Part shown: positions 38,826 to 42,683 of the stretch, in pieces
How positions within the stretch are numbered: the stretch's first letter is position 1
Layout of the letters: every line of letters starts with the position of its first letter
DNA from: a virus
Strand: one strand, 5' to 3'
IMG/VR virus record: IMGVR_UViG_3300038299_000097
Location: 1-64,000 of that record
Length of the DNA: 64,000 bases
Program-made: the position numbers and the translations under genes
The notes under the pieces: model-generated
The model's database searches: none
Seen by the model: the letters and a program-made list of their open reading frames with translations, nothing else
What the model was told of the DNA's origin: nothing

Positions 38826-39899
38826 ATGAGTAACACAGTTTTAAATCTAGAGAAGCGTGATGCATTGGCTGAACCAATGTTTTTCGGCACACCCCTTGGA
38901 ATCCAACGTTTCGACGTGGTTAAATATCCAGAGTTTGCAAAGTCCGTAGAGACACAATTTTCCAACATGTGGAACCCAAAGGAGATAGGTATGGCATCAG
39001 ACCTAGCTTGTTATGAATCACTCTCAGATACCGAGAGATTCATCTTCGAGACAAATCTTCGATTCCAGACAGCGGGTGATTCACTACTTTCCAGAAGTAT
39101 TGAAGCAATCAAACAACATGTCACAAACTCAGAACTTGAGTACGCAATGAACTGGTGGGGTCTTATGGAGAATATTCACTCCGAGAGTTACACCCACGTA
39201 CTACAAGGGATCACTAAAGATCCTACACCATTCTTCGATTCTATTCTAGAAGACACAGAACTGGTTGAACGTATGCAGACCATCATCAAACCCTTCAATG
39301 ACCTTCTTGAAGATAAGGAAGGTGACTGTAAGCGCACGAAATTATTCAAAGCGGTGTTGGCACTACAAATTGCTGAAGGTGTTCTATTCTACACATCATT
39401 TGCATGTAGTTTCTTCTTCGCTAAGAACGGTAAGATGACCCAGAACGGTAAGATCATTTCTATGATTAAGCGTGATGAGTCAGAGCACCAATCAATCACA
39501 CAGAACATACTCAAGAGAATGCGCGAAGATCCGTCCGAGGGGTTCCAAGATATCGTAAAGGCTCATGAACAATTCGTTTATGATTCATACGAGGTTGCAC
39601 TTGATGGTGAAAAGAAGTGGGGTGATTACTTATTCTCTAAGGGTGAGATGGTCGGACTTACTAAAGCATCTCTCCATGGCTATGCTGAGTGGAATGTTCG
39701 TGGTCGTTTGAGATCCAATGGTTATGATCCATCAAAGTTTGCTTACCCACTAGCAGAACAGAATCCTATTTCATGGTTGGTTAAATTCCTTGACTCAAGT
39801 CGTGTACAGGCGGCACCTCAAGAGATCGAGAAGACTGATTATAAGAAGATGGGAACTGTAAACAATCTTGGTAGTTCGCTTAAGACATTAAAATTCTAA
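38826..39899 (+). CDS. nrdB: class Ia ribonucleotide reductase beta subunit
   Basis: W.P.EI, DS, ENIHSESY, EG..FY.SFA, RDE..H and APQE.E..Y. Confidence 0.95.
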   Translation: MSNTVLNLEKRDALAEPMFFGTPLGIQRFDVVKYPEFAKSVETQFSNMWNPKEIGMASDLACYESLSDTERFIFETNLRFQTAGDSLLSRSIEAIKQHVTNSELEYAMNWWGLMENIHSESYTHVLQGITKDPTPFFDSILEDTELVERMQTIIKPFNDLLEDKEGDCKRTKLFKAVLALQIAEGVLFYTSFACSFFFAKNGKMTQNGKIISMIKRDESEHQSITQNILKRMREDPSEGFQDIVKAHEQFVYDSYEVALDGEKKWGDYLFSKGEMVGLTKASLHGYAEWNVRGRLRSNGYDPSKFAYPLAEQNPISWLVKFLDSSRVQAAPQEIEKTDYKKMGTVNNLGSSLKTLKF

Positions 39900-39917: not shown

Positions 39918-39946
39918 TTGACACTGATTTAAAACTGTGCTAATCT
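39918..39946 (+). promoter_or_regulatory. promoter P1 of the ncRNA array
   Basis: TTGACA-N17-TAATCT with extended -10 TG; RNA unit 1 begins 7 nt downstream at G39953. Confidence 0.8.
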
Positions 39947-40040: not shown

Positions 40041-40195
40041 TATAAATAAAACGCCCAGCCACGGCTGGGTTATATTATAAAACTGAAGTCGAAAGACATT
40101 GGGGGTTCGAGTCCCTCACTTCCCACTCGACGGGAAGTTGGCGAAATTGGTAGACGCATCAGATCAACTCATCCAATTCGGGCGTTTTATTTATA
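40041..40195 (+). ncRNA. array RNA unit 2: YrlA-like RNA with a circularly permuted tRNA-Leu-like domain
   Basis: 16-bp perfect outer stem; AGCCAC/AATTC loop; variable arm GTCGAAAGAC; T arm GGGGGTTCGAGTCCCTC; ACTTCCC-A-loop-GGGAAGT; D arm GCGAAATTGGTAGACGC. Confidence 0.9.
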
Positions 40196-40200
40196 TTCAG

Positions 40201-40287
40201 ATCAAATGAAAACAGTTCCTCAGCTAAGTGTATGTTATTTATATTCAAAACACACATACCCAATTCGGGGAGTTGTTTTCATTTGAT
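40201..40287 (+). ncRNA. array RNA unit 3 (shared module plus AU/AC-rich loop)
   Basis: 21-bp outer stem with 3 G-U pairs; AGCTAA/AATTC loop; GTATGT/ACATAC stem. Confidence 0.85.
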
Positions 40288-40364: not shown

Positions 40365-40392
40365 TTGACAATATGATCAAACCTGTTAAAGT
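40365..40392 (+). promoter_or_regulatory. promoter P2 of the ncRNA array / TerD-fusion operon
   Basis: TTGACA-N16-TAAAGT with extended -10 TG; unit 4 begins 7 nt downstream at G40399, the same geometry as P1. Confidence 0.75.
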
Positions 40393-40398
40393 AATTGT

Positions 40399-40461
40399 GT
40401 CACCAGCTAAGAGAGTGTTATTTAAATGAAATCAAAACACACACACTCTCAATACGGTGGC
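40399..40461 (+). ncRNA. array RNA unit 4 (shared module plus AU/AC-rich loop)
   Basis: GTCACC/GGTGGC stem, AGCTAA/AATAC loop, GAGAGTGT/ACACTCTC stem. Confidence 0.85.
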
Positions 40462-40607
40462 TATAAATATGGCATTCAGCTAGGTATAAGTTAAACTATT
40501 AAACAATTGGTCACAGGTTCAAATCCTGTCATCTCAGCCTTATGGGATGTAGCTCAGTCTGGTAGAGCAGTTGATACAACTTGTACGATTCGGGTGCCAT
40601 ATTTATA
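40462..40607 (+). ncRNA. array RNA unit 5: YrlA-like RNA with a circularly permuted tRNA-Asn-like domain
   Basis: 16-bp outer stem (2 G-U); AGCTAG/GATTC loop; T arm ACAGGTTCAAATCCTGT; CATCTCA-G-loop-TGGGATG; D arm GCTCAGTCTGGTAGAGC. Confidence 0.9.
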
Positions 40608-40640
40608 TCCTTCAACATAAACAACAAACACCACTAACTA

Positions 40641-42683
40641 ATGTTACTATCCGAAAACGCAGTATATGTTCAGCCTTCTAAGTCAGCTCGTAGTAAGAGC
40701 AACTCAGTTAAAATTGCTAACCTGCTCTCTATTGAGTTAATGAACTACGGTATTCAGCTAAGTGCCGACCTTCGTAATTCAATTTCCAAGCTTAATGCCA
40801 AGGACGCTCAGTCAGTAGCTACTGAGATCCTTAAGGCTAACACCATGGGTAGTCTAACACCACCACTTTTCCGTAATTGGGAACAGCGTAATGCGTTCAC
40901 CACTGGGGAGATCATTGTGCAACTCTTTGCATACGTATTCCAAATCTCTGGTAATGATCTTTATGATCCAGAGTTCCTCAACAACCTTGACCGTGATTTT
41001 GATTACACCAAGACGCTCAACCTTGCTACCAAGGATGACGCAACCAAGAAGTTCAGCACTCTTGCAACCACACGAGTGCCACTCGACATGGCTTCTATGC
41101 AACTTGTAGTACAACTTGCTAAGACACTTCCTTTGGACAACTGTGAACGTATCTTCTCTGATGAAGTTCGTGTGGCTGTTATCGACGGTGATGGCGGTTG
41201 TGACTTTAAATCTTTCAAAGGGCGACCAACTGACGTTCTTAAACTCTTCGCACTCCGCAAGAATCAAAACACTCTCGACATGAAACTACCTGTCGATGTC
41301 AAATTTGACGCCCTCTCATGGTCTGAGAGAATCAAAACACTTGAGTTCCTTGAGTCCTTCGGTTTCGAATATCTATCTGAAGAGATGGGTAAGAACCGTG
41401 GAGCTTGGTCTAAGTTCTTCAACCACATTCATGCTTTCGGGCAGAAGGGTTGGAGTAATAGATTCCCTAATTTCATGATGGCATCAATGGCATCCGTTCA
41501 ACGTAATATTAGTCTAGTAGATAAGAAGACCGTCAAAGGTTTCTCAGAACTAATACTTAGTGGTGGCGTTGAAGTGGTTTCTAATAAGTTTGTTTACCGT
41601 ACATTCGCTTCCCGTGTAGAATCAACACTCAAAAACTACAAGACATTTGATCAAGTGGTTGCAGTGTTTGGTAACAAGGGTTCTTATGTTCTCAACAACT
41701 TGACCTCTATTTCTAACAAGATCAAGAAGGCAGACTCTCGTAAGTTTGTGGAGCTTGTTCGTGGGTTTCTTACCAATGCACCAGTCAAAACTCTGTTCTC
41801 TATTCTATCTATCGATGTGAATGCAGAGTGGCGTGTGATTGATGTTAAGGGTAGCACCAAGATCGAAACTGCCAACTATAGTTCTGTCATTGGTGACATC
41901 CAAGGTGACATCAAGATCGCCCTACATGAGCGTTTCGGGTTCGAGGGTAAGGTAACAGTCGATAAAGAGCTTGCGACACTAGGTGTGCCATTCTTGACCA
42001 CTAGTTCACAACTTAGCCGTGGTACTCGTTACTCATTCACTGATGACGAATATCTCTACTTCTTCATGAAGTGGATTCAGCCAGAGAATCGGACTACAGA
42101 TCTTGACCATAGCCTTCTTTACTTCGATGCGGATTGGAATTCACAACACGTTTCATTCTCTCGTCAAGTTGATACATTCATCCGACATGGTGGTGACATC
42201 ACCAGTGCGCCAGCCCCACATGGTGCCAGTGAATACTCACGAGTTGATCTCAAACTAATCCCGAAAGCTGTTAAGTACATCGTACCATCAGTGTTCGTAT
42301 ATAGAGGTACTAAACTTTCATTGAATGATGAGGCATATGCAGGATTCTACTTCGGTGATAACGATTCGTTCTCCCTTAAACAGGAACACACACGTTACGA
42401 CTTCACTCAGCCATCAGGGTTTAACGTACCATTCATCATCGACGTTGAGAATCGCGAGATTGTAGTGGTGGATTATAACCAAGAGACCTCTGGTAATGTT
42501 GTTCAGTCTGCTGTATGTGATATCAAGAACCTCATCAGTGCTACGAATTCTAAGAACTACATCACCGTTGAGGATCTAGCAGAGATTCTATCTGGTGATA
42601 AGGATACCACATCCTTAAATATCTCAAACGATAGTGGCGATGGTATAGTAGCACCACAGGATTTATTCTCACTGTTCGCATAA
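40641..42683 (+). CDS. large alpha-helical protein with a C-terminal TerD-like domain (candidate Ro/TROVE-like RNA-binding protein)
   Basis: C-terminal W......TDLDHS..F, H.GDITSAP..GASEY..VDL TerD motifs preceded by LSRGTR; helical N-terminal ~430 aa. The Ro-like role is inferred from the adjacent RNAs. Confidence 0.7.
   Translation: MLLSENAVYVQPSKSARSKSNSVKIANLLSIELMNYGIQLSADLRNSISKLNAKDAQSVATEILKANTMGSLTPPLFRNWEQRNAFTTGEIIVQLFAYVFQISGNDLYDPEFLNNLDRDFDYTKTLNLATKDDATKKFSTLATTRVPLDMASMQLVVQLAKTLPLDNCERIFSDEVRVAVIDGDGGCDFKSFKGRPTDVLKLFALRKNQNTLDMKLPVDVKFDALSWSERIKTLEFLESFGFEYLSEEMGKNRGAWSKFFNHIHAFGQKGWSNRFPNFMMASMASVQRNISLVDKKTVKGFSELILSGGVEVVSNKFVYRTFASRVESTLKNYKTFDQVVAVFGNKGSYVLNNLTSISNKIKKADSRKFVELVRGFLTNAPVKTLFSILSIDVNAEWRVIDVKGSTKIETANYSSVIGDIQGDIKIALHERFGFEGKVTVDKELATLGVPFLTTSSQLSRGTRYSFTDDEYLYFFMKWIQPENRTTDLDHSLLYFDADWNSQHVSFSRQVDTFIRHGGDITSAPAPHGASEYSRVDLKLIPKAVKYIVPSVFVYRGTKLSLNDEAYAGFYFGDNDSFSLKQEHTRYDFTQPSGFNVPFIIDVENREIVVVDYNQETSGNVVQSAVCDIKNLISATNSKNYITVEDLAEILSGDKDTTSLNISNDSGDGIVAPQDLFSLFA

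What the first reader, a model, noticed from the sequence alone, without database searches (positions are those of the whole stretch)
40496..40574. Second, independently captured permuted tRNA (Asn-like) retaining an anticodon-loop remnant
Seen in sequence: CTATTAA-A-CAAT, TGGTC, T arm ACAGG-TTCAAAT-CCTGT, CATCTCA plus G73 plus CC, linker, TGGGATG, TA, D arm GCTC-AGTCTGGTA-GAGC, A, GTTGA. U1-A72, G73 and the stem match tRNA-Asn. The single-stranded CTATTAA just before the stem differs by one base from the Asn anticodon loop CTGTTAA; unit 2 similarly has TAAAA (Leu UAA+AA) there. Inference: two different tRNAs were separately grafted onto the same scaffold, opened on the 5' side of the anticodon loop, so they resemble anticodon-region-cleaved tRNAs. 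They may be decoys or sensors for host anticodon nucleases or tRNA-targeting toxins, or precursors that could be ligated into tRNA.
Basis: partly seen in the sequence, partly recalled or inferred. Interest (0 to 1): 0.8.

Follow-up and report, generated by a model that had tools for sequence, protein, structure and literature searches.

The report
Inside-out tRNA-Asn mimic, phage Y-like RNA
A large phage encodes a small RNA holding a complete tRNA-Asn-like body wired back to front, as bacterial YrlA "Y RNAs" are, mounted on a conserved stem that travels with a Ro60-shaped protein gene; it is most likely a tRNA mimic serving an undescribed cousin of the Ro60/Y-RNA particle, not a cut or working tRNA.

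Summary
Window 40496-40574 reads, in order: a heptamer, the 3' strand of the anticodon stem, variable loop, T arm, a 7-bp acceptor stem closed by a 6-nt loop, D arm, and the 5' strand of the anticodon stem. ARAGORN finds no tRNA in the window as it stands. Joined in normal tRNA order, the stretch is called tRNA-Asn(att) and matches phage tRNA-Asn genes end to end at 75-81%. The sister unit at 40075-40163 comes from a class II tRNA-Leu(UAA), so the two have separate tRNA origins.

The "cleaved tRNA" picture is not supported. Both strands of the anticodon stem continue into a covarying "handle": outer stem, C-AGCUA / AUUC-G internal loop, inner stem, invariant UAU. Arrays of this handle lie directly upstream of homologues of the neighbouring 680-aa gene in about 30 phage loci. 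That protein has a TerD C-terminus, and the best fold matches of its N-terminus among 48,161 chains are Ro60. The topology is that of YrlA (Rfam 41.2 bits, below the cut-off of 69).

The heptamer CUAUUAA may be an anticodon-loop relic, but it also carries the handle's UAU, and similar heptamers occur in tRNA-less handles. Function is inferred by analogy with Ro60/YrlA. Earlier notes of this scan report the same system in at least 12 other genomes.

The parts
40365..40392 (+). Sigma-70-like promoter (TTGACA, 16 nt, TAAAGT, with TG before the -10) for the second cassette, modules 4 and 5
   Evidence: 10 of 12 matches. A parallel TTGACA-17-TAATCT lies at 39918-39946 before module 1. Similar promoters precede the first handle in related loci. 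Consensus match only; not shown to be active.
40398..40462 (+). Module 4: simple handle hairpin without tRNA cargo
   Evidence: Covariance model R1, 55.2 bits. This sequence is part of the training alignment A2.
40462..40477 (+). Module 5 outer stem P1, 5' strand. It pairs with 40592-40607 (16 bp).
   Evidence: MFE fold. Compared with unit 2, the inner half of the stem differs by compensating changes: AAACGCC/GGCGTTT versus TGGCATT/GGTGCCA.
40478..40483 (+). Handle internal loop, 5' side: AGCTAG
   Evidence: C-AGCT is invariant in 44 handles. Found by the pattern script.
40484..40492 (+). Handle inner stem P2, 5' strand GTATAAGTT. It pairs with 40578-40586.
   Evidence: P2 covaries across the family.
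40493..40503 (+). 5' strand of the junction loop, AAA-CTATTAA-A. The heptamer at 40496-40502 occupies tRNA positions 32-38, and A40503 is position 39.
   Evidence: It contains the handle's invariant TAT. Whether it is a loop relic or a scaffold motif is unresolved.
40504..40512 (+). Anticodon-stem 3' strand CAAT (positions 40-43) and variable loop TGGTC (44-48)
   Evidence: Nearly identical to Rhizobium phage tRNA-Asn, GCAAT-TGGTC.
40513..40529 (+). T arm ACAGG-TTCAAAT-CCTGT
40530..40549 (+). Acceptor stem closed by a loop: CATCTCA, G73, linker CCTTA, TGGGATG
   Evidence: 7 bp. G73-C-C reads as the relic of an encoded CCA end (inference; real phage tRNA-Asn genes end in GCCA).
40550..40569 (+). 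U8, A9, D arm GCTC-AGTCTGGTA-GAGC, A26
40570..40577 (+). Anticodon-stem 5' strand GTTG (positions 27-30), A31, and the 3' junction strand TAC
   Evidence: A31 and A39 are unpaired, as in unit 2.
40578..40607 (+). P2 3' strand AACTTGTAC, loop 3' side GATTC, and P1 3' strand
40641..42683 (+). 680-aa gene: helical N-terminus with a Ro60-like predicted fold, plus a TerD domain. This is the inferred protein partner of the handle.
   Evidence: Handle arrays lie upstream of its homologues.
40041..40195 (+). Module 2: sister handle carrying a permuted class II tRNA-Leu(UAA)-like body (40075-40163)

Best explanation
Shown. Window 40462-40607 is one module of a five-module small-RNA array. Its apical part (40496-40574) is a circularly permuted copy of a tRNA-Asn-type gene, in the order: positions 32-73, a short linker, then positions 1-31.

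Inferred origin. The copy most simply arose from two head-to-tail copies of one tRNA gene. The linker keeps C-C of the CCA end.

Inferred structure and partner:
- The body folds into a normal L-shaped tRNA. Its acceptor end is capped by a loop, and its 4-bp anticodon stem continues, through an asymmetric junction, into the handle. This is the YrlA (bacterial Y RNA) design.
- The handle (P1, the C-AGCUA / AUUC-G loop, P2 and the UAU motif) binds the 680-aa Ro60-shaped/TerD protein encoded 33 nt downstream.

Inferred function, by analogy with Ro60/YrlA:
- The tRNA-shaped cargo docks the particle to a protein that recognises the tRNA elbow or acceptor arm. Candidates are a processing, modification or repair enzyme, an exonuclease, or a host tRNA-targeting enzyme.
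- The handle gates the Ro-like ring.
- Because the acceptor stem has 7 bp and is followed by G-C-C, RNase P cleavage and CCA repair of the loop, as shown for M. smegmatis YrlA, is a plausible maturation step.
For: Anatomy:
- YrlA match of 41.2 bits over model positions 23-88.
- The fold of 40390-40615 gives z = -4.7, with a closing stem, T arm and acceptor hairpin.
- The de-permuted sequence is a canonical cloverleaf and matches tRNA-Asn at 75-81% end to end.

Handle:
- 44 tRNA-less copies were aligned, and 12 of 13 base pairs covary.
- Model R1 finds module 1, which was not used for training, at 46.5 bits.
- Handle arrays lie directly upstream of homologues of the 680-aa protein in most of L003-L030 and L038-L040.

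Protein:
- AlphaFold2 model with pLDDT 82.
- TerD fold at Z 14.0.
- For the N-terminus alone, the top two of 48,161 chains are Ro60: 9l5y_B (Z 8.3, 263 residues aligned) and 2nvo_A (Z 7.7, 274 residues). The next hit has Z 6.0 over only 95 residues.

Comparator:
- In L310, a true Ro60 gene (Pfam TROVE plus vWA_Ro60) is preceded by the same kind of array: CCGAA handles with T-arm-only cargo and permuted-tRNA cargo.
- Its YrlA score is 46.4 bits, also below the cut-off.
- Its T arm is identical to that of unit 5, and its D arm differs at one position.

Literature:
- YrlA RNAs are circularly permuted tRNA mimics. The one with a 7-bp acceptor stem is cut by RNase P and receives CCA (PMC4201824; 10.1101/312249).
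- Phage phiLo has two Y-like RNAs just upstream of its Ro60 gene (PMC12135203).
Against: - No experiment bears on any step. Transcription, protein binding and the L-shaped fold are all predicted.
- The protein has no sequence similarity to Ro60: Pfam TROVE is absent, a profile search against PDB sequences finds nothing, and BLASTP against the L310 Ro60 gives E > 1.
- Foldseek finds no Ro60, and Z values of 7.7-8.3 lie in the range where helical repeats can match by chance.
- The handle lacks the Ro60-binding motif GNCGAA(N)G.
- The YrlA score is below Rfam's gathering cut-off.
- None of the related loci I could fetch carries a tRNA body on a handle. There were about 31 loci found through the protein and about 25 found through a handle pattern. 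Conservation of this unit therefore could not be tested.
- Model R1 cannot span the 100-nt insert, so unit 5's membership of the handle family rests on reading and on a pattern script.
Confidence: 0.6

Rival explanations
1. Decoy or bait. The tRNA body, with its exposed and mutated anticodon-loop strand, soaks up or senses host enzymes that attack tRNA (anticodon nucleases, tRNA-targeting toxins) and so protects real tRNAs.
For: - The body keeps isotype-specific parts of tRNA-Asn: acceptor stem, G73 and anticodon stem.
- In tRNA-less handles, 11 of 70 predicted apical loops have the 7-nt anticodon-loop form YU-NNN-R-H, against 0.39 in shuffles. Exact CTGTTAA occurs 5 times, so the family does seem to display anticodon-like loops.
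- Homologues of the protein gene often sit in phage tRNA clusters.
- Earlier notes of this scan propose the same idea for other genomes. Those notes are unchecked.
Against: - In unit 5 there is no closed 7-nt anticodon loop. The heptamer is one strand of an 11/4-nt internal loop.
- G34, which established knowledge names as needed by the enzymes that read the Asn anticodon, is A here.
- No defence or counter-defence assay exists.
- A decoy would not by itself need a dedicated Ro60-like partner.
Confidence: 0.17
2. Processing signal. The tRNA-shaped units serve mainly as RNase P/RNase Z sites that cut the long transcript into separate handle RNAs and free the mRNA of the 680-aa gene, as tRNA punctuation does.
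For: - The 7-bp acceptor stem with G73-C-C resembles a true RNase P substrate.
- M. smegmatis YrlA is cut there (PMC4201824; 10.1101/312249).
- No terminator was found between module 5 and the gene.
- Each of the two cassettes ends with a tRNA-bearing unit.
Against: - A cut in the acceptor loop would not separate the modules, because the two halves stay paired by the 16-bp P1 stem.
- Related arrays manage without any tRNA unit.
- Retention of isotype-specific stems is not needed for punctuation.
Confidence: 0.1
3. The heptamer CUAUUAA is not a relic of the Asn anticodon loop. It is the handle's own A/U-rich apical sequence carrying the invariant UAU. This rivals only that detail of the finding.
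For: - T-A is invariant, and the following T nearly so, in 44 tRNA-less handles.
- 11 of those 44 have a heptamer within one mismatch of CTGTTAA, and L012 has the exact CTATTAA.
- Both tRNA-bearing units read U33-A34-U35.
- Given a fixed TATT core, the remaining three bases match by composition with P about 0.025.
Against: - The heptamer lies in exactly the right register next to a stem strand that matches a real tRNA-Asn: CTATTAA-ACAAT-TGGTC versus CTGTTAA-GCAAT-TGGTC, 15 of 17.
- The per-position frequency of such heptamers in handles is only 1.6%.
- In unit 5 the UAU lies 4 nt further from P2 than in ordinary handles.
- The two readings can both hold, if a relic was mutated (G34 to A) to supply the UAU.
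Confidence: 0.35
4. Permuted pre-tRNA. The unit is excised, circularised or ligated, and opened at the acceptor loop to give a working tRNA, as in Cyanidioschyzon merolae.
For: - The gene order is the same (3' half, linker, 5' half), and after de-permutation the cloverleaf is intact.
- The possibility has been raised for YrlA (10.1101/312249).
Against: - The anticodon would be AUU with an A31-A39 mismatch.
- The flanks form a long handle, not a bulge-helix-bulge motif.
- No RtcB, Rnl1 or Rnl2 is present in the 74.8 kb held, though that is only about a third of the genome.
- No bacterial splicing endonuclease is known (10.1101/312249).
Confidence: 0.03
5. Dead remnant of two adjacent tRNA genes, with no function of its own.
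For: - The only BLASTN hit of the native sequence is a tRNA-Met|tRNA-Asn junction in another phage.
- ARAGORN calls no tRNA.
Against: - Every tertiary-contact nucleotide and all four stems are intact.
- The two acceptor strands pair with each other.
- The unit is enclosed by a 16-bp stem with compensating changes relative to unit 2, and by the conserved handle loop.
- A promoter precedes the cassette.
Confidence: 0.04

Closest known systems
YrlA Y RNAs with Ro60/Rsr of bacteria and phages (Rfam RF02553; Chen et al. 2014, PMC4201824; Wang et al. 2018, 10.1101/312249)
   Same: - Circularly permuted tRNA-like domain: T arm, loop-closed acceptor stem, D arm.
- Attached through the anticodon-stem position to a protein-binding bulged stem.
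- Encoded in tandem with other Y-like RNAs next to the gene of a ring-shaped partner.
- All tRNA tertiary-contact nucleotides kept.
- The 7-bp acceptor stem matches the RNase P-cleaved M. smegmatis form.
   Different: - Scores 41.2 bits against a cut-off of 69.
- The handle loop is C-AGCUA / AUUC-G plus UAU, not GNCGAA(N)G.
- The partner has no detectable sequence similarity to TROVE and carries TerD where Ro60 has vWA.
[quoted passage not shown]
Canonical phage Ro60 loci with arrays of Y-like RNAs
   Same: - RNA array immediately upstream of the protein gene.
- One handle repeated with different cargo: T arm only, or a whole permuted tRNA.
- T arm identical to that of unit 5, and D arm differing at one position.
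   Different: - L310 has a Pfam-positive TROVE plus vWA_Ro60 protein and CCGAA handles.
- Its acceptor and anticodon stems are unlike those of unit 5.
Circularly permuted tRNA genes of Cyanidioschyzon merolae and some archaea (cited in 10.1101/312249)
   Same: - The 3' half lies upstream of the 5' half.
- The acceptor stem is first made as a closed loop.
- The ends pair as an extended anticodon stem.
   Different: - Those are processed into working tRNAs by splicing endonuclease and ligase.
- Here there is no such motif or enzyme, the anticodon is not a usable one, and the flanks are a conserved protein-binding handle.
Two-piece (permuted) tmRNA, Rfam RF04321
   Same: Permuted order of the tRNA-like parts.
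   Different: - Only 14.9 bits against a cut-off of 47.
- Unit 5 has a full D arm.
- There is no tag reading frame.

Membership tests
YrlA (Rfam RF02553) | Permuted tRNA-like domain: T arm, closed acceptor stem, D arm, with tRNA tertiary-contact nucleotides | tested here: met
   (model positions 23-88 aligned).. Reading.
YrlA (Rfam RF02553) | Score at or above Rfam's gathering cut-off (69 bits) | tested here: not met
   41.2 bits, and no hit at gathering threshold. A Ro60-linked phage element (L310) also scores only 46.4 bits, so the cut-off is strict for phage members.
YrlA (Rfam RF02553) | Ro60-binding stem carrying the GNCGAA(N)G motif (PMC4201824) | tested here: not met
   Model positions 1-22 and 89-114 do not align. 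The stem of unit 5 carries AGCTAG / GATTC instead.
YrlA (Rfam RF02553) | Encoded next to a Ro60 (TROVE) gene | tested here: inconclusive
   By sequence there is no TROVE. By predicted fold, Ro60 chains are the two best matches of the neighbour's N-terminus, Z 8.3 and 7.7. Foldseek finds none.
Canonical tRNA gene | Colinear cloverleaf detectable by tRNA finders | tested here: not met
   ARAGORN finds 0 genes in the window. There is no RF00005 hit. The stretch is recognised only after de-permutation.
tRNA-Asn descent | U1-A72, G73, and best full-length similarity to tRNA-Asn genes | tested here: met
   The T and D arms alone are generic for class I tRNAs.
Handle RNA family upstream of Ro60-like/TerD genes (not in Rfam 15) | P1, asymmetric loop C-AGCYA-N / R-AUWC-G, P2, UAU, with covarying stems, upstream of a homologue of the 680-aa gene | tested here: met
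   Pattern script, reading, family covariation. Model R1 cannot span the 100-nt insert, so this rests on pattern and reading, not on a model score.
Permuted pre-tRNA genes (C. merolae type) | Processing into a functional tRNA (bulge-helix-bulge junction, usable anticodon) | tested here: not met
   Anticodon AUU and A31-A39 mismatch. The flanks form the handle. Processing itself cannot be tested with these tools.
Permuted tmRNA (RF04321) | Score at or above the cut-off of 47 bits | tested here: not met
   14.9 bits.

The most novel reading that the evidence does not exclude
The handle RNAs are a swappable display kit. Each module presents either a whole tRNA body or a bare anticodon-like loop of a chosen isotype (here Asn and Leu) as an uncleavable bait. 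The Ro60-like/TerD protein then captures, reports or disarms host enzymes that cut those tRNAs. On this reading, the G34-to-A change in unit 5 is what makes the bait resistant.
Probability: 0.15. Interest if true: 0.85.

Novelty: new variant of a known kind. Interest (0 to 1): 0.6.

Why it matters
Y RNAs that mimic tRNA are known, but neither their origin nor the role of the tRNA part is settled. This unit is a young example. Its parent isotype (tRNA-Asn) is still readable in every arm, its linker keeps part of a CCA end, and a sister unit comes from a class II tRNA-Leu.

It gives direct sequence support to the proposal that such mimics arise from dimeric tRNA genes (10.1101/312249), and it shows that this happened more than once on one scaffold.

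It also ties a protein family with no recognised RNA-binding domain to a Ro60-like role. That family has a helical region plus TerD, and its only family match here is a partial hit to an NCBIfam family named for a RING domain. This would widen the Ro60/Y-RNA type of particle in large phages. The RNA-protein pair is directly testable.

Tried and rejected
- A pattern from the shared cassette junction found only a chance match inside a tail-fibre-like gene (L001).
- The closest NrdB relative (L002) has no intergenic region after nrdB.
The contig of the 84%-identical homologue P0002 could therefore not be fetched, and conservation of this unit in a close relative remains untested.
- Two collection scans for handles with tRNA cargo (filtered) gave no further case.
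- TATAAATA as a T4-type late promoter: 11 sites against 7.5 expected, and 5 of the 11 lie in this array. It is not enriched and the idea was dropped.
- RtcB, Rnl1, Rnl2 and the CCA-adding enzyme were not found in the 74.8-kb record. This is uninformative, because only about 33% of the genome is held, and the Rnl1 control matched nothing anywhere.
- Foldseek on both protein models showed no Ro60. A profile search against PDB sequences found nothing.
- A crude scan found no handles next to the Streptomyces SCO0854-family homologues.
- BLAST of the two tRNA halves separately was not isotype-specific.

Full report
**Setting.** The window is part of a 74.8-kb virus record estimated to be 33% complete. 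It carries nrdA, nrdB, rIIA and rIIB, so it is a fragment of a large T4-like or jumbo phage. The 740-bp gap between nrdB (38826-39899) and a 680-aa ORF (40641-42683) holds the feature.

**The observation.** The order is:

- heptamer CTATTAA;
- A (position 39);
- CAAT;
- variable loop TGGTC;
- T arm;
- acceptor 3' strand with G73;
- linker CCTTA;
- acceptor 5' strand;
- U8-A9 and the D arm;
- A26;
- GTTGA.

The acceptor strands pair over 7 bp, and all universal tertiary-contact nucleotides of tRNA are intact. ARAGORN finds no tRNA in the window, and Rfam finds nothing at gathering thresholds. With permissive thresholds, the YrlA model aligns 40505-40575 to its tRNA-like part at 41.2 bits, E 1.8e-7.

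As a control, three phage tRNA clusters were scanned, holding about 55 tRNAs and many tRNA-tRNA junctions. They gave a single YrlA hit, at 29.8 bits. The score of unit 5 is therefore not what any junction of two tRNAs gives.

**Descent from tRNA-Asn.** I joined the 5' half (40543-40574) to the 3' half (40496-40537).

- ARAGORN then draws a canonical cloverleaf, tRNA-Asn(att), with an A31-A39 mismatch.
- BLASTN of this 74-mer against 50,697 phage records gives full-length matches at 75-81%. Every annotated hit among the top 60 is tRNA-Asn or Asx, from phages of Rhizobium, Staphylococcus, Arcanobacterium, Mammaliicoccus and Pseudomonas.
- With the seven loop bases masked, Pro, Ile, Lys and Thr tRNAs also appear. 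Only tRNA-Asn hits run from base 1 to base 74.
- The alignment shows why. The Rhizobium phage tRNA-Asn shares the acceptor stem (TGGGAT.), the D arm, the anticodon stem (GTTG./.CAAT) and the variable loop (TGGTC). The Staphylococcus phage tRNA-Asn shares the T stem and the acceptor 3' strand with G73.

The Asn assignment therefore holds, although the D and T arms alone are generic. Real phage tRNA-Asn genes end in G-CCA. The linker G-CC-TTA therefore reads as a CCA relic plus a 2-3 nt spacer. This fits an origin from two head-to-tail copies of one gene (inference), close to the dimeric-tRNA model proposed for YrlA (10.1101/312249).

**Separate origin of the sister unit.** De-permuted unit 2 (40132-40163 plus 40075-40125) is a class II cloverleaf with a long variable arm. 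Its closest matches are tRNA-Leu(UAA) genes, at 60/82 and 59/83 identity, with the anticodon stem CAGA/TCTG kept. Units 2 and 5 are less alike than each is to real tRNAs.

**It is not a cut tRNA.** Folding 40390-40615 gives -66.2 kcal/mol, z = -4.7. In that fold the two anticodon-stem strands lead into a 9-bp helix (P2), then an asymmetric loop (AGCTAG / GATTC), then a 16-bp outer helix (P1). Unit 2 has the same frame, with compensating changes in P1.

This frame is a family:

- The 680-aa protein has 49 homologues, most at 33-46% identity.
- In the loci fetched through it, 1-6 copies of a roughly 55-nt hairpin with the same loop lie directly upstream of the gene.
- In an alignment of 44 such copies, C-AGCT and a T-A just 3' of P2 are invariant, and 12 of 13 base pairs show compensatory changes.
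- A covariance model built from them finds module 1 of the window, which was not in the training set, at 46.5 bits.
- The model cannot bridge the 100-nt inserts of modules 2 and 5. Their membership rests on the pattern script and on reading.

The tRNA body thus replaces the variable apical loop of a handle. Other handles carry small hairpins there, and one carries a lone T-arm-like hairpin (L015:1751-1819).

**The heptamer.** For a relic of the anticodon loop:

- It sits in exactly the register of positions 32-38.
- The stretch CTATTAA-ACAAT-TGGTC matches CTGTTAA-GCAAT-TGGTC of a real tRNA-Asn at 15 of 17 positions.
- Such heptamers occur at only 1.6% of positions in handle loops.

Against a relic:

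- It contains the handle's invariant UAU.
- 11 of the 44 tRNA-less handles have a heptamer within one mismatch of CTGTTAA somewhere in their loop. Five of these are exact, and L012 has the same CTATTAA.
- Both tRNA-bearing units read U33-A34-U35.

My reading is that the loop strand probably came in with the graft and was then changed (G34 to A) to supply the UAU. I give about 0.6 to a relic by descent. This is inference.

In passing, 11 of 70 tRNA-less handles have a predicted 7-nt apical loop of the form YU-NNN-R-H. Shuffles give 0.39 on average and at most 2 in 200 trials. This keeps alive the idea that the family displays anticodon-like loops.

**The partner.**

- The 680-aa protein has no Pfam or PHROG match. 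It has a partial NCBIfam match to the MXAN_6230/SCO0854 family: 161.7 bits against a cut-off of 600.
- The AlphaFold2 model has pLDDT 82. Its C-terminal domain has the TerD fold (Z 14.0 over 154 residues).
- The whole model also aligns to three Ro60 structures over about 300 residues each, at Z 4.9-6.4.
- The N-terminus folded alone has pLDDT 80. Its two best matches among 48,161 chains are Ro60 of Thermus phage phiLo (Z 8.3, 263 residues aligned) and of D. radiodurans (Z 7.7, 274 residues). The next hit has Z 6.0 over only 95 residues.
- Foldseek and sequence profiles see nothing.

The Ro60-like ring is therefore probable, not established.

**A direct comparator.** A scan for the T-arm/D-arm pair of unit 5 returned L310, from a 231-kb phage contig. 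There a true Ro60 gene (Pfam TROVE 138.6 bits, vWA_Ro60 187.1 bits) is preceded by an array of CCGAA-handle RNAs. Their cargo is either a T arm alone or a permuted tRNA. That permuted tRNA scores 46.4 bits on YrlA, also below the cut-off. It has the same T arm as unit 5 and a D arm that differs at one position, but different acceptor and anticodon stems. BLASTP between the two proteins finds nothing. The design in the window therefore matches that of canonical phage Ro60 loci, including phiLo (PMC12135203), with a different handle and a different protein.

**Mechanism.**

- Shown: the anatomy, the descent from tRNA, the covarying handle, and its linkage to the gene family.
- Inferred: the handle binds the Ro60-like/TerD protein, and the L-shaped cargo recruits a factor that reads the tRNA elbow or acceptor arm. 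For YrlA the expected effectors are tRNA-binding proteins (10.1101/312249).
- Also inferred: because the acceptor stem has 7 bp, like the M. smegmatis YrlA that RNase P cuts before CCA addition (PMC4201824), the same maturation is plausible here.
- A link to tRNA biology fits the frequent placement of the gene family inside phage tRNA clusters. It also fits the known induction of the Salmonella rsr-yrlBA-rtcBA operon by damaged tRNA (abstract of PMC7790460, listed; not read further).

**Comparison and novelty.** The unit works like YrlA but fails three of four membership tests for that family: score, handle motif, and TROVE neighbour by sequence. No paper in the held library describes this handle or its partner, and Rfam 15 has no family for it. 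Earlier notes of this scan report the same handle-plus-TerD/Ro-like system in at least 12 other genomes. I used them as leads only. I class the finding as a new variant of a known kind.

**Limits.** No expression or binding data exist.

Noticed in passing
L310:2300-4854 (IMG/VR contig of 231,459 bp): A canonical Ro60 gene (Pfam TROVE plus vWA_Ro60) is preceded by about seven repeats of a CCGAA-type handle. Their cargo is a T arm alone or a whole permuted tRNA, and the T arm is identical to that of unit 5 (the D arm differs at one position). L304 and L306/L307 hold similar closed-acceptor permuted tRNAs.
   Followed up: partly
L003-L040, apical loops of tRNA-less handles (e.g. L010:2340-2401, L019:2221-2276, L012:2432-2488): Apical loops are enriched for 7-nt loops of anticodon-loop form (CUGUUAA, CUGUAAA, CUUUUAA, CUGCAAA and others): 11 of 70 against 0.39 in shuffles. 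Exact CTGTTAA occurs 5 times where about 0.06 is expected from base composition (my own arithmetic from the composition). Related copies inflate the count.
   Followed up: partly
L015:1751-1819: One handle carries only a T-arm-like hairpin (GTGG-TTCAAAT-CCAC) as cargo.
   Followed up: no
L003, L005, L009, L013, L014, L022, L026, L030: Homologues of the 680-aa gene often lie inside or beside clusters of real tRNA genes. In L022 and L026 a tRNA-Lys sits directly upstream of the gene and no handle was found.
   Followed up: no
window 40088-40095: The variable-arm hairpin of unit 2 reads GTCGAAAG, which fits the Ro60-binding motif GNCGAA(N)G of YrlA. It may be chance (my rough estimate is about 0.3 such matches expected in 700 nt).
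   Followed up: no
window 41835-41858 (residues 399-406 of the 680-aa protein): The stretch IDVKGxT contains several of the family's invariant residues (I400, D401, G404, T406). It aligns in BLASTP with the vWA metal-site strand IDVSGSM of the L310 Ro60 (E 1.3, not significant). It could be a trace of a lost vWA domain.
   Followed up: no
G000:C1:74153-74228 (outside the window): The phage record encodes at least one ordinary tRNA, tRNA-Lys(ttt).
   Followed up: no
L032 (Erwinia phage pEa_SNUABM_47) and L033 (Vibrio phage KVP40): Jumbo phages carry 113-125-nt 'tRNA' or pseudo-tRNA annotations, and an unannotated D-arm-like match lies at MT939487.1 294655-294684. These are possibly intron-bearing or tRNA-like RNAs.
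   Followed up: no
window 40201-40287: Module 3 is a handle whose outer stem is extended to about 21 bp of A/U-rich pairs. It lies between the two promoter-driven cassettes.
   Followed up: no
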